Shown here: one piece after another, positions 1,383 through 42,470 of the stretch
Layout of the letters: every line of letters begins with the position of its first letter
Numbering within the stretch: the first letter of the stretch is position 1
From: Eledone cirrhosa
Lineage: Eukaryota
Assembly (NCBI GenBank): GCA_964016885.1
Contig: OZ024745.1
Span: forward strand, 22,072,001-22,136,000
Direction: 5' to 3'
DNA length: 64,000 nucleotides
The notes under the pieces: generated by a model
Told to the model about the DNA's origin: nothing
The model's input: only the letters and a program-made list of their open reading frames with translations
Database searches by the model: none
Made by a program: the position numbers and the translations under genes

Positions 1383-1556
1383 AGGAAAAAGTTTAACCCC
1401 GACAGCAGAGCTCAAGCCGTTTCGACGACGGAAATAGCCGTCGAAACGGCTTGAGCTCTGCCGTCGGGGTTAGACTTTTTCCTATTACCCACTCTACTAC
1501 CCTAAGTATTGAGTACTCTGGTGCGTTATGATCCATCTGGTTCCTTACCACACTAC
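1383..1556. repeat. Fold-back element family F1 in (TA)n
   Basis: Arms aggaaaaag..gagctcaagccgtttcgacg / cgtcgaaacggcttgagctc..ctttttcct plus a one-sided tail; five copies in the window. Confidence 0.85.
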
Positions 1557-3375
1557 ATATACATATATATATATATGTGTGTGTGTGTGTGTGTGTGTGT
1601 GTGTGTGTGTGTGTGTGTGTGTGTGTATTCTTTCTAACTTAGCTACGCTATACGCTTTGTTATATTTCCTACCTAATATTTTTTATCAATTATATGTATG
1701 TAAGTGTGTGAGTATGTGAGAATTTGTGCTCTTGCATATGTATGTATATCTATGTGTGTGCTTAAACTTACATTTGTATTGTATGTATGTTCATAACCCA
1801 CACATACATGTGTGTGATATATGTGTGTCTATGTTCTTATATGTCTATGTTCGTAATTGTGTGTGTGGGTGTAATAGGGATATTTTAAAATACTCCTTTT
1901 GTTTCCTTATATCCGAACATACTTGTATATGCACACTAATAATAATATATATATATATATATATATATATATATATATATATATGTATGTATGTATATAT
2001 GTATGTATGTATATATATATATATATATATATATACAAAAATATATATAAATATATATATATACATATATACATGTATATACTTACATATATATATATAT
2101 ATATATATACATATATATATACATAAATAAATATAAATATATATATACATATATATATATATATTTACACATACATATATATATATATACGTATATATAT
2201 ATATATATATATGGATGTGTGTGTGTCTGTGAATATATATTTCTCTCTCTCTCTCTGTCTCTCTCTCTCTCTCTCTCTCTCTCTATATATATATATATAT
2301 ATATATATATATATATATATATATATATATATATATACAAATATATATATACATACAAATATATATATACATACAAATTCAAACTTTAGTTATTTTCATA
2401 TATTTTTCATTTAAGTTTTTATTTTATGTTTTCAATCCGAATATTCCGATTTTATAGAATTTTAAAATCTTCTCTCCGGTTTTAAAGTAGAATATTACAG
2501 CTGTAATATCGTACAGACTGGAAGATTGTTTCCAGACAAAAGCCGATTTCCGAAAAAGGACTTAAAACGGATCGATGCCGCAATCTCCCAGAGGGCCCTC
2601 TTTTTCCGGTGATATGATCGCGTCTTTAATCTGATTTTAAACGAAGACAAAGCAAAATGTACGATATATAATACTAAGCTACAAACATACGCATGTGAGC
2701 ACATAACAAACCACATGCCAGCACACACAAATAAACACTCAACACACACACACTCTCTCTCTCACATACACACACAAATATATATATATGTGTGTGTATG
2801 TATATATATATGTATATATATATATACTTATATGTATATATATTTATATATATATATATATATATATACATATATGTATGTATATATGTGTGTGTGTGTG
2901 TGTATATATATCTATATCTATATCTATATCTATATATATGTATATATGTATATTTATATATATATATATATATATATATATATATATATATATATATATA
3001 TATATATATATTTATATATTTATATATTTATATATATATATAAATATATATATTTATATATGTATATATATATATGTGTATATATATATGTATATTTATA
3101 TATATATATATATATATGTGTGTGTGTGTGTGTGTCTGTGTGTATATATATATATACATATATATATATGTATTATGTTTTCAATTTGTGTCACTTTATT
3201 TTATTTTAATATTCTCAACGTGCATTTTTGTAGGCCTTCTTTTTAGTGGCATTTAGCATGCATAAGTATGTCGTCCTACATATTACTACACACTAGCAGA
3301 CATTTCCATACACAGAAGACAAATTATAAAAGTATAGCAGATGATAACATTACAAAAGCTACAAAATATTACAAA

Positions 3376-4930
3376 ATATATATATATATATATATATATA
3401 TATATATATATATATATATATATATATATATATATATATATATATATATATGTGTGTGTGTGTGTTTGGGGAGGGGCTGTATGTTGTATGTGTATGTCTC
3501 CGTATGAGTATGTATATACGTATATATACACACATACATACACACACACATGAATGCATATATGTATATATATATATGTATATATATATATATATATATA
3601 TATATATATAAATATATACATTTATGTGTGTGTGTATGTATGTGTGTATATATACGTATATGCATACTCATACGGAGACATACATATGTCTATATATATG
3701 TATATATGTATGTATATATATATATATATATATATATATATAGACATATACATACATATATATATACGTATATATATATACGTATATATATGTATATATA
3801 TATATACGTATATACATATATATATACATATATATATATATATATAGACATGCATATACATATATGTATATATATATGTATATATATATGTATATATATA
3901 TATATATATATATATGTATATATATATGTATATATATATATATGTATATATATATATGTATATATATATGTATATACGTATATATATACGTATATATATA
4001 TATATATGTATATATATATATTTATATATATAAATATATATATATATATATATATACATATATGTATATATACATACATATACATATATATATATATATA
4101 TATATATATATATATATATATATATATATATATATATATATATAAATATATATATATATATATATATATACATATATATATATATACATACATATACATA
4201 TATATATATATATATATATATATATATATATATATATATATATATATATACGATAGAGTTAGTCAGCAATAACAACATGGAAAAATATAGATATTCCCAA
4301 TATAAGTCGTCCGTGATGTGGAAGGTAGAGCTGGTGGATATAAAAGTAGGAGTGTGGAGGAACGAAACGGAAAACGTCAAACGAATAATGCTAGGATAAA
4401 AATATTTCAGATTTTATATTTTATCAAAATTCTGGAATCATTGAAATCGTACATAATGTATCTCTCCACCGTCTACATAACACTTACATTATGTTTCGTT
4501 CTTTTTCTAATCTCTCATTCTCTATCTACATATATATATATATATACGTGACTAAACATACTTATATACACACACACACACACACACACACACACACACA
4601 TATATATATATATATATATATATATATATATATATATATATATATATATATATATATATATATATATATATATATATATATATATATATATATATATACA
4701 TACATATATATATATACATATATATATATATATATATATATATATATATATATATATATATATATATATATACACATACATATACACACACATATATATA
4801 TACATACACACATATACATTAATAACAATAATAAGAAGAAGAAGAAGAACAATAATAATATACATATACATATATATATACATACACACGCGCACACATA
4901 AACATATCTATACACACACACACACACACA
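3376..4930. repeat. Compound (TA)n/(CA)n tracts
   Basis: Directly visible. Confidence 0.9.
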
Positions 4931-4939
4931 CGATAGCAA

Positions 4940-6270
4940 CTAACAGCGCGGCGATCGAATGTGGCTTTTTAGCCCAGCCAATGATCTAAAATGTCTTGCA
5001 CAGAGTCGGCAACCAAAACATTCACTGGGAATAGTCGTCTGTGGTTGGAGTTCGTGTACTTTTGCATGTCGCTTGAGCCCTCCTGCTGATCTACATTCTC
5101 TACCACATGTTTGGCAAGCATGATGAATAGCATCTCCAACAGCAGCCTGGTAGTCAACCACTGGTCTTACTTTATGACTGCGAAGATGACTTTCGAGTCC
5201 AGCTTTGCTTAGGCAGAGTCTCGCACAGACGCTGCATGTCAGCATCATAGGAGGACCCTCGCCGTCTGGAAGTGCAATGCCCTTCCTCACATCCCGCTTT
5301 ACTTTTTCGTATGCGATTCGAGATGCCTCAAAGGCAACTTTTCCCTCATATACAGTCTTTCTCCATTTATTACGATCAGCAGCAATATTTTCCCATGTAT
5401 CAGCAGAGATGTTAGCGCCTTTCAAAGAGGCTTTCATGGAATCCTTATACCTCTTTTTTGGTTTGTGTGGCGGTCGTTTTCCTTTAACCAACTCTCCATA
5501 AAAGAGTTGTTTTGGTATTCTAGAATCCTTCATCCTGGCAAGGTGACTACTCCAACGGACTCGTTGCTTAAGCACAAGAGCTTCTATACTATCACACATA
5601 GAGCTTTCCAAAATCTCGACATCACTGATGTGGTCCCTCCAGTGAACGCCAAGGATCCGTCTGAGACACAACTGATGGAAGCGCTCCAATTGCCTAAGGT
5701 GGTGCCGATATGTGACCCAGGTCTCGCAGGCATAAAGAAGACAAGAGAGCACACATGCCTTGTACACCTTTACTTTTGTCTTCCTGCATATGTCTCGCCG
5801 ACCCCAGAGTCGCCTTTCTAGCTTTCCGAAAGCATCACTTGCTTTCCTAATCCTAAGTGAGATTTCACTGTCAAGGTTGCTGTATCGATTGACAGTGCTT
5901 CCCAGGTAGACAAACTGATCAACCACTCCAAGTCGTTTACCACACACATAGATATTTGGTTCAGTGTACTGCTTACCAGGGGCAGGTTGGTACATGACGA
6001 CGGTTTTCTTGAGACTGACAGTCAATCCTAGGGCAGTGCAAGCATCAGAAAATGCATTCAAAATGTGCTGCATATCACTCTCTGTGTGCGCTACAAGATC
6101 GCAATCATCTGCATACAAGAGGTCTCTTATGATTGATGTAAATACTTTTGTCTTTGCAGCAAAGCGCCTCATGTTAAATATGCTGCCTGAGGTTCGATAT
6201 CGGATGTAAACACCATGCTCGCAATTCCTGAATGCAATACAGAAAACCATTGCAAAGTATATGGCAAACA
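4940..6270 (-). mobile_element. 5'-truncated RTE (BovB-like) LINE: C-terminal part of RT, thumb and three C2H2-like zinc fingers
   Basis: LLYADD, F.YLGS, LLYACETW, RW..HL.RM...RIPKQLFYGEL; tail with CSVC..H..SH, CQTC..H..VH, CRLC..H. The first codons of the listed ORF are microsatellite. Confidence 0.92.
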
Positions 6271-6404
6271 GATGTATATACATACATACATACATACATA
6301 TATAAATATATGTCTATACATACATATATATATATGTATTTATATATATATATATATATATATATATATATATATATATATATATATATATATATATATA
6401 GCGT

Positions 6405-6680
6405 AAATTCAATAGTTCGATTCCGGACGGCACGTTGTGTCCTTGAGCAAGATACTTTATTTCATGTTGCTCCAGTCCGCTCAGCTGGCAAAATGTGTTG
6501 TGCCTGTAATTCGAAGGGCCAGCCTTATCCCTTTCTGTGTCACGCTGAATCTCCCCGAGAACTATGTGAAGAGTAAGCGTGTTTGTGGAATGCTTAGCCA
6601 CTTGTATGTTTCACGAGAAGGCTGTTCCGTTGATCGTATAAATTGGAACACTCATTGTCCTAACTGACGGAGTGCCAGTT
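6405..6680 (+). mobile_element. CORE-type SINE family B (other copies near 23630-23865, 24295-24545, 34515-34800, 40075-40590, 51255-51765, 57010-57130)
   Basis: tgtgtccttgagcaagatactttatttcatgttgctccag core recurs; the copy at 34520 has tRNA A/B-box-like motifs. Confidence 0.7.
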
Positions 6681-41598: not shown

Positions 41599-41810
41599 TA
41601 TCGCCTAATCAATAACCAATCGATCGACAGAATCCAAACCACAGCCCGTGCCGGATATGACTGTTTGTGATTGCCGACAGAGTAAAGTGATTAGCAACTG
41701 GAATCCGATATATATATATATATATATATATATATATATATGTATATATATATATATATATATATATATATATATGTATATATATATATATATATATATA
41801 TATATATATA

Positions 41811-41968
41811 TATTGTTATACTTTGGGAGGGTCATGTTGCCAATAAGAAACACACGCACTGGTGCGTGTGTTTCTTATTGGCAACATGACCCTCCCAAAG
41901 TATAACAATATCGGTTTCAACACACGATTTCAGATAAAGAATCTTGCTAAACAAATTCAGAAACGAAA
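41811..41968. repeat. Fold-back element family F4 (non-palindromic copy at 8858-8975; fragment at 30426-30460)
   Basis: tattgttatactttgggagggtcatgttgccaataagaaacacacgcac-tg-gtgcgtgtgtttcttattggcaacatgaccctcccaaagtataacaata. Confidence 0.85.
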
Positions 41969-42067
41969 TATATATATATATATAAATTGAAATGAGCAGA
42001 ACTAATAGACATTAAACAATACTTTAAATAAATAAAAAAATGATTTAAATATCAACCTGTTCATAAT

Positions 42068-42129
42068 GCTATTACCGGCGGTTTCGCTTTACAAAAGATT
42101 AGAGATTCAGAGAAAGTTCATCAGATAGC
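42068..42129 (-). ncRNA. Type I hammerhead
   Basis: gctat-CTGATGA-acttt..aaagc-GAAAC-cgccg-GTA-atagc. Confidence 0.8.
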
Positions 42130-42276
42130 TATTTCCATCCTATAGTTCTGCTCATCTCAATTTTTATAGTTCTGGTATCTCAAATTAGTACCATTGAACA
42201 ACAATTATATTATAGACACCCTTTATATCTCTATGGGTACTTAGTATTTGCCTCATTTCATATATATATATATATA

Positions 42277-42470
42277 ACGAAGGAAATATGGTAAGAAACC
42301 AGGTGGACCATAACGCACCAAAGTACTCAATACTTAGGGTCGTAGAGTGGGTAATAGAAACGAGTAGGACCCCAACGACTGAGCTCAAGCCGTTTCGACG
42401 GCTAATTCTGGACTCAAGATTTAGCCGTCGAAACGGCTTGAACTCAGCCGTCGGGGTCCTACTCGTTCCT
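42277..42470. repeat. Fold-back element family F1
   Basis: Same layout; both arms share the copy-specific gagtaggacccc. Confidence 0.8.

What the first reader, a model, noticed from the sequence alone, without database searches (positions are those of the whole stretch)
1383..42470. Palindrome centres fall on hammerhead stem II: fold-back at the ribozyme hairpin
Seen: in F1 (1383, 10586, 22907, 42277), F3 (8173) and the F2 relative at 19797-19960, both arms begin with the 3' half of a hammerhead-like motif (..GAAAC/GAAAT..). The symmetry axis lies where stem II would be, so CUGANGA is lost. At 23342 the axis is just upstream of CTGATGA. In every hammerhead-bearing palindrome the ribozyme strand reads outward from the centre to the (TA)n. 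Inference: reverse transcription stalls and self-primes or switches template at the ribozyme hairpin, which would explain the inverted 5' ends known for PLEs.
Basis: partly seen in the sequence, partly recalled or inferred. Interest (0 to 1): 0.8.

Follow-up and report, generated by a model that had tools for sequence, protein, structure and literature searches.

The report
Penelope palindromes mark likely transcript starts
These palindromes are short head-to-head pieces of Penelope-like jumping genes whose centres cluster at the element's predicted transcription start rather than at the ribozyme hairpin, likely because two reverse transcripts each run off the capped RNA end and are then joined.

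Summary
The palindromes are real: head-to-head fragments of Hydra-type Penelope-like elements (PLEs) in (TA)n, with 54,367 exact matches to one F1 22-mer. The stem II rule is not general. Of 127 pairs in 1.86 Mb, 33 have the axis in stem II, 29 of them F1; F3 1 of 13, F2 0 of 17. The product predicted for stem II self-priming has 0 genome-wide matches. F1 does have a hammerhead 5' half, as a U3-A8 variant, never CUGANGA. Instead, 5' ends of inverted and non-inverted copies stop at one sharp boundary per family, about 30 nt below a TATA box in 5 of 10 families. An extra G sits just before that boundary in 64, 57, 61 and 53 of 100 listed copies (four families), against 12 and 14 of 100 at control sites, and only 30 of 100 in F2. 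67 of 71 pairs have one tailed and one short arm, and some join with a 0-2 nt gap and a G on both arms. Best reading (0.7): two cDNAs primed from opposite target strands run off the capped mRNA 5' end and are joined. No RNA data could test the start site.

The parts
1382..1553 (+). F1 head-to-head pair; short arm left, tailed arm right; axis 1433; arms stop about 6 and 14 nt short of the predicted start
8174..8326 (+). F3 head-to-head pair; tailed arm left; axis 8291.5 in loop II (1 of 13 F3 pairs with this position)
10587..10786 (+). F1 pair; tailed arm left; axis 10726.5; right arm reaches the predicted start at about 10729, left arm one base short
   Evidence: position by offset from the GAAA at 10747
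17967..18482 (.). Tail-to-tail pair of another hammerhead family (cores at 17985 + and 18464 -) reading inward to a central (TA)n; counter-example to 'always outward'
19286..19447 (+).
19809..19950 (.). F2-related palindrome, axis 19879.5; arms begin at GAAA; no other copy in the sequence held
20088..20493 (+). F2 pair with complete hammerheads in both arms (cores 20181-20187 - and 20307-20313 +); axis 20247, 60 nt upstream of the core
22907..23117 (+). F1 pair; tailed arm left; axis 23052; right arm begins at the predicted start (about 23060); junction holds short duplicated pieces of the arm end
23342..23526 (+). F3 pair; axis 23474; both arms reach the predicted start (about 23473) and overlap by a 4-nt self-complementary word; type I hammerhead complete in the right arm (core 23479-23485)
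38130..38591 (-). F2 pair, axis 38406, about 100 nt upstream of the hammerhead core
42277..42469 (-). F1 pair; tailed (left) arm reaches the predicted start (about 42414) and carries the extra G on its sense strand
42497..42900 (-). Non-folded F2 copy with complete hammerhead (core 42675-42681) and upstream UTR; used as a reference

Best explanation
The palindromes are paired 5'-UTR fragments of Hydra-type Penelope-like elements whose inner ends cluster at one boundary per family, which is likely the transcription start of the pLTR promoter, and they likely form when two reverse transcripts run off the capped mRNA end and are joined. Shown: in tandem elements the order is CCAAT and TATA boxes, boundary, hammerhead or its 3' half, short end, tail end, start codon, RT, GIY-YIG; inner ends pile up at the boundary; an extra G precedes it; pairs hold one tailed and one short arm of the same subfamily. 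Inferred: the RT-endonuclease (a predicted dimer in a related PLE) nicks both strands of (TA)n and primes one cDNA from each nick, one at the short site and one at the tail end, about 60 and 135 nt from the cap in F1 and F3. Each cDNA runs to the cap, often gains a C opposite it, and the two 3' ends are joined head-to-head by template jump or end joining with 0-25 nt trimming and small overlaps or inserts. Long copies would come from initiation at the 3' read-through copy of the same signals. The template would be sense, capped and not cut by the ribozyme.
For: Boundary: 5' ends of inverted and non-inverted copies stop at -45 (F3), about -41 to -48 (F1), -70 to -73 (family 8), -68 to -76 (family 16), counted from the ribozyme cut site. 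TATA boxes at -75, -70/-72, -102, -104, and -147 for one F2 subfamily with boundary -118; background 0-12% of positions. Depth of public contigs (run X1) on the full F3 element falls about 9-fold across the boundary (1.5 million to 0.18 million). Extra G (hand counts on the first 100 listed matches): F1 64 of 100 (4,799 matches) vs 12 of 100 three bases further in; F3 57 of 100 (2,207) vs 14 of 100 six bases further in; Fisher p 2e-14 and 2e-10. Predicted beforehand and met: family 8 61 of 100, TATA-less family 3 53 of 100. Contexts show junctions, not a subfamily variant: (TA)n then G then boundary (L246, L260). Two cDNAs: one tailed plus one short arm in 67 of 71 pairs; the short arm reaches further in 9 of 24 unequal F1 pairs; joins with a single base at the axis (L250; 17 of 100) or a G on both arms with 0-3 bases between (L249, L251; 7 loci), too tight for an intramolecular loop. 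Arms of a pair differ at 1.4 of 24 sites vs 5.4 between loci. Full elements link the ends to the ORF (F3; F1 L242). In vitro, a related PLE initiates at two sites bounding the tail, extends both target strands and does not need ribozyme cleavage (PMC11167929).
Against: No RNA 5'-end data. TATA boxes fit only 10 of 21 reference rows, 5 of 10 families, and the motif was chosen after seeing F1 and F3, so p = 0.004 is optimistic; the initiator motif matched 12 of 21 rows against a background of 11-41%, no clear excess. F2 gave G in only 30 of 100, and most F2 ends scatter 0-60 nt below its boundary. In the unbiased sample the first unmatched base at the boundary was G in only 4 of 12, vs 25 of 152 elsewhere. 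Some G's can come from 1-bp pairing with a G of the other arm. Only 6 of 37 F1 pairs have both arms at the boundary, and several F1 arms run 1-4 nt past it. Listed matches are the first by position on contigs 1-2, not a random draw. Families 8, 3 and F2 have no matched control. Run X1 may be the source of the assembly and its depth is no copy number. Some boundaries (families 1, 4, 12, F2 rows) may be subfamily divergence from the reference.
Confidence: 0.7

Rival explanations
1. One cDNA runs off the transcript 5' end, then folds back on itself and copies itself; the boundary is the start site but there is no second cDNA.
For: Arms are nearly identical and of one subfamily; overlaps of 1-5 nt in 14 of 37 F1 junctions; the tailed arm is the longer in 15 of 24 unequal pairs; a frequent F1 junction fits a 4-nt loop closed by the added C.
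Against: The short arm reaches further in 9 of 24 and can carry the G when the tailed arm lacks it (L248, L257, L258); loops of 0-2 nt occur; a short-first cDNA could not supply the tail. It may still account for a share of loci.
Confidence: 0.15
2. One reading: RT stalls and self-primes or switches template at hammerhead stem II.
For: 29 of 35 short-range F1 axes fall in stem II/loop II vs 9.7 expected; 8173 and possibly 19879 do too.
Against: 4 of 58 in other families vs 6.7 expected; F2 0 of 17, F3 1 of 13; 0 genome-wide matches to the product that keeps the natural loop, with a pattern that fits 20 of 22 long F1 copies by hand count; explains neither the TATA spacing nor the G.
Confidence: 0.05
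3. The boundary is a fixed RNA end made by processing, or the palindromes come from self-priming on an antisense template, as proposed for rotifer PLEs.
For: RT may add a C at any template end (own knowledge); 5 of 10 families show no TATA box at the boundary; PMC3846280 argues for antisense self-priming.
Against: TATA spacing of about 30 nt in five families; the G lies on the sense strand before the first base; F1 tailed arms show no pile-up at the ribozyme cut (4 of 67 within -5..+14).
Confidence: 0.07
4. A few master palindromes spread as MITE-like DNA elements, or the palindromes are assembly fold-backs.
For: Very high copy number; some junction types recur.
Against: Junctions vary widely (gap -5 to +38 nt over 37 F1 pairs); arms are diverged and asymmetric in a family-specific way; ends link to RT and GIY-YIG ORFs.
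Confidence: 0.03

Closest known systems
Hydra clade of Penelope-like elements (Craig et al. 2021, PMC8557442; passages and section 11 seen)
   Same: C-terminal GIY-YIG, RW[KR], DKT, CxCX5C linker, (TA)n targets, hammerhead in the pLTR, inverted 5'-truncated copy, optional tail.
   Different: Tails are 65-90 nt rather than 30-40; the F3 unit is about 5.5 kb because of a microsatellite-filled 3' UTR; most copies are only the start-to-tail piece. The passages seen leave the origin of inverted structures open.
Poseidon PLE of the green anole in vitro (Frangieh et al. 2024, PMC11167929; parts 1-2 of 4 seen)
   Same: Two initiation sites bounding the tail, both target strands cut and extended, predicted dimer, uncleaved RNA as template.
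   Different: The text seen does not describe run-off at a capped end, an added G, or joining of two cDNAs into a palindrome.
Adineta vaga Penelope elements (Arkhipova et al. 2013, PMC3846280; passages seen)
   Same: Head-to-head pLTRs with palindromic junctions, tail on one arm, putative TATA box and initiator in the pLTR.
   Different: Explained there by self-priming on an antisense template; the data here point to a sense, capped template and two cDNAs.
LINE-1 twin priming and cap-derived 5' G (PMC9341517, passages seen; mechanism otherwise recalled)
   Same: Both target strands prime cDNA; an untemplated G marks copying to the cap.
   Different: In L1 the two cDNAs copy different parts of the RNA, giving an inversion; here both copy the same 5' segment, giving a palindrome.
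PLE minimal type I hammerheads with U3-A8 (Cervera and de la Pena 2014, PMC4209133; passages seen)
   Same: U3-A8 covariation in the core is already reported in PLEs.
   Different: In F1 the TATA box and predicted start lie inside stem II/loop II.

Membership tests
Hydra-clade PLE | Single ORF with RT and C-terminal GIY-YIG endonuclease | tested here: met
   F3 element, one ORF with two frameshifts; F1 fragments. Pfam support is weak: GIY-YIG E = 0.069 for one protein, nothing for the RT piece.
Hydra-clade PLE | RWK-type and DKT motifs | tested here: met
   RWR and DKT in both F1 and F3 translations
Hydra-clade PLE | CxCX5C linker; CxxC and CxH near the endonuclease end | tested here: met
   seen in F1 L003 and F3 translations
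Hydra-clade PLE | Absence of the CCHH motif, CxC motif and IFD | not tested
   no alignment to reference PLE proteins was made
Hydra-clade PLE | Insertion into (TA)n | tested here: met
Hydra-clade PLE | Generally short (<3 kb) | tested here: not met
   F3 pLTR-to-pLTR distance 5,512 nt, about half of it simple repeats in the 3' UTR; a tendency in the source paper, not a strict criterion
Hydra-clade PLE | Placement in the Hydra clade by RT phylogeny | not tested
   no tree built; assignment rests on motifs
Type I hammerhead (F1) | Canonical CUGANGA core | tested here: not met
   0 of 22 long copies; 13 of 22 U3-A8, 6 C3-A8 mismatch, 3 other (hand count)
Type I hammerhead (F1) | Three helices around the core, GAAA and NUH | tested here: inconclusive
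   93% of 385 cells paired vs 23-51% for slid partners, but no compensatory change among 17 copies; the minimum-energy fold prefers another stem III and is not better than shuffles (z -1.0)
Type I hammerhead (F2, F3 and others) | Canonical core with three helices | tested here: met
   97 C3-G8 descriptor hits vs 0 shuffled and 30 U3-A8 vs 3 shuffled in 1.864 Mb; F3 needs a U-U pair at the base of stem II
Type I hammerhead | Self-cleavage | not testable with these tools
   needs an in vitro assay
RNA polymerase II core promoter | TATA box about 30 nt upstream of the start | tested here: inconclusive
   met in 5 of 10 families, 10 of 21 rows
RNA polymerase II core promoter | Capped RNA 5' ends at the site | not testable with these tools
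   only the indirect extra-G signature could be counted
MITE / foldback DNA transposon | Uniform internal junction copied from master elements | tested here: not met
   16 different gap sizes among 37 F1 junctions

The most novel reading that the evidence does not exclude
PLE integration in general is a twin target-primed reaction: a dimer makes two cDNAs from the two tail-bounding sites, and when it loads on the 5' UTR both run off the cap like strong-stop DNA and are joined. This one mechanism would explain inverted pLTRs, the one-sided tail and tens of thousands of short palindromes, and it makes genomic junctions a map of PLE start sites. In F1 the promoter sits inside the hammerhead, so only the read-through 3' copy could fold the ribozyme.
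Probability: 0.45. Interest if true: 0.78.

Novelty: new variant of a known kind. Interest (0 to 1): 0.62.

Why it matters
How PLEs make inverted pLTRs with a tail on one side is described as open in the papers read (PMC8557442, PMC11167929), and one published proposal is self-priming on an antisense template (PMC3846280). This genome holds tens of thousands of independent junctions that point to a sense, capped, uncleaved template and to two cDNAs per insertion. That ties the in vitro two-site initiation to genomic structure and gives direct tests. The elements, their hammerheads, the U3-A8 variant and pLTR promoters are known. Nine searches of the held library turned up no paper on cap run-off in PLEs; most subscription papers and Repbase reports are not in that library, and no supplements were read.

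Tried and rejected
Rfam scan of the window: the 150 listed of 585 matches were simple-repeat microRNA noise, no hammerhead family among them. DNA search of the genome with an F1 arm: nothing, as common words are skipped. Search for F1 tails running into an ORF: the pattern was out of phase with (TA)n; none of the 6 loci inspected of 30 continued into an ORF; tandem elements were found instead through the protein scan of the sample. RNA runs: no RNA holder listed. One search used a misregistered structure and is replaced. The F3 rows are duplicated by an ambiguous anchor, so its F3 totals are not used. The tail-arm histogram for F3 is distorted by folded references and is not used. The tail motif search found the motif in only 6 of 20 family representatives within the tail. 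Earlier findings: none. Dropped before counts: arms with extension score under 12 or at locus edges; pairs with (TA)6 or longer between arms or weak arm match; 4 duplicate loci, L241-242 and the 18 loci picked for their junction base. The 127 pairs include 9 from family 5, whose copies lie partly in a tandem array, and 8 'after cut' calls that may be natural hairpins.
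Full report
Observation. The window lies in a 3.0-Gb AT-rich genome rich in simple repeats. After masking, 21 local inverted repeats remain, including all those named. Each named one has a longer arm, a shorter arm and (TA)n outside. An F1 22-mer has 54,367 exact matches, with 0 for the reversed control.

What the families are. Unfolded F1 copies lead upstream through a 0.7-1.2 kb UTR into RT and GIY-YIG coding sequence. A complete F3 element shows, in order: an inverted short arm, a pLTR with hammerhead and tail, the ORF, a long 3' UTR, a second pLTR with tail, and (TA)n. 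An F1 pLTR running into its ORF was found at L242, and an F2 one at L068. The protein motifs match the Hydra clade as defined in PMC8557442 section 11; no tree was built. A descriptor search of 1.864 Mb (the window plus 180 stretches of 10 kb, chosen without regard to content) found about 20 hammerhead families.

The F1 hammerhead. None of 22 long F1 copies has CUGANGA. Thirteen have the U3-A8 core, 84-87 nt upstream of the cut, with a stem II region of about 55 nt (hand count). U3-A8 cores are common here (30 hits vs 3 shuffled; mismatched cores at background) and are known in PLEs (PMC4209133). The helices pair in 93% of cells but show no covariation, and six copies carry a C3-A8 mismatch, so activity is unproven.

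Testing the stem II rule. Of 595 arms, 227 had an inverted partner, giving 127 pairs: 66 upstream of the hammerhead, 33 in stem II, 13 in the 5' strand of stem I, 1 in the core, 6 in GAAA-stem III, 8 after the cut. F1 supplies 29 of the 33. Among pairs with the axis within 200 nt of the cut, non-F1 families have 4 of 58 in stem II against 6.7 expected. Self-priming through the natural F1 stem would keep the natural loop; that product has 0 matches in the genome.

What sets the axis. The 5' ends of all arms, inverted or not, show a sharp upstream boundary with a spread of shorter ends below it. In F3, F1, family 8, family 16 and one F2 subfamily a TATA box starts 26-32 nt above the boundary, with CCAAT boxes further up in the four families read for them. 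Five other families show none, and the initiator test was not informative. Contigs of a public run laid on the F3 element drop about 9-fold in depth across the boundary and about 1000-fold from pLTR to ORF (the run may be the assembly's source). In F1 the boundary lies in loop II, in F3 six bases before the core, in F2 65-95 nt before it.

The extra G. Patterns that exclude the natural upstream bases list copies cut exactly at the boundary. By hand count of the first 100 matches, the preceding base is G in 64 (F1), 57 (F3), 61 (family 8), 53 (family 3) and 30 (F2). At control positions a few bases further in it is G in 12 and 14. Contexts include (TA)n followed directly by G and the boundary, so it is neither target nor element sequence. 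An untemplated 5' G is associated with reverse transcription of a cap in L1 (PMC9341517). In the small unbiased sample the signal was 4 of 12 vs 25 of 152.

One cDNA or two. 67 of 71 pairs in four families hold one tailed and one short arm, and arms match each other far better than other loci. Neither arm is consistently longer at the inner end (15, 9 and 9 equal). Some joins have one base at the axis, and some have a G on both arms with 0-3 bases between. A single strand cannot loop over 0-1 bases, and a fold-back cannot give the short arm bases that the tailed arm lacks. Two cDNAs primed from opposite strands give exactly the head-to-head geometry seen. This fits in vitro work on an anole PLE, where both strands are cut and extended, two start sites bound the tail, a dimer is predicted and ribozyme cleavage is dispensable (PMC11167929). 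The joining step, whether an RT jump or host end joining, is inferred; overlaps of 1-5 nt and short duplicated inserts fit either.

Shown versus inferred. Shown: family identity, axis positions, boundaries, TATA spacing in five families, G excess in four, arm asymmetry. Inferred: that the boundary is a capped start, that two cDNAs are made, the dimer, and the joining route. No RNA evidence could be had.

What was read. PMC11167929 parts 1-2 of 4; PMC8557442 passages and section 11; bioRxiv 10.64898/2026.07.22.740005 part 1 of 5 (not used further); passages of PMC4209133, PMC3846280, PMC2377424 (the Penelope promoter lies in the pLTR) and PMC9341517. No supplements were read; those of PMC8557442 and PMC11167929 may bear on tail length and junction structure.

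Verdict. A real feature of a known element class. The proposed ribozyme fold-back is not supported as a rule, but following it up gave a better-supported and testable account of how PLE inverted ends likely form. Interest 0.62.

Noticed in passing
L242:473-590; alignment A1: In F1 the TATA box overlaps the 5' strand of hammerhead stem II and the predicted start lies in loop II, so RNA begun there would lack the 5' half of the ribozyme; only read-through RNA could fold it.
   Followed up: partly
sample-wide: At least five families use the U3-A8 hammerhead core; several have a U-U pair at the base of stem II.
   Followed up: partly
tails of F1, F2, F3 and families 3, 6, 12, 15, 20: A short shared motif sits 20-30 nt into the tail in several otherwise unrelated families; a candidate RT or endonuclease recognition signal. 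Missed in most other family representatives.
   Followed up: partly
window 17967-18482; also L167, L038, L100: Tail-to-tail pairs around a central (TA)n; the window pair is identical over 102 of 102 nt. Five such calls in the sample, origin unexplained.
   Followed up: no
L039, L158, L162, L032: Tandem arrays of hammerhead-bearing units without an ORF (families 1, 4, 5), retrozyme-like; family 1 has a fixed 5' end near -275 and an octamer-like motif.
   Followed up: no
L087: The 3' UTR of the complete F3 element is filled with about 2.5 kb of mixed TA/TG repeats.
   Followed up: no
window 10363-10546 and about ten relatives: An abundant dispersed repeat of about 180 nt without a hammerhead, SINE-like by recall; sometimes in inverted pairs.
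   Followed up: no
window 48882-49273 (-) and 60467-60787 (+): Remnants of the PLE endonuclease domain inside the window.
   Followed up: no
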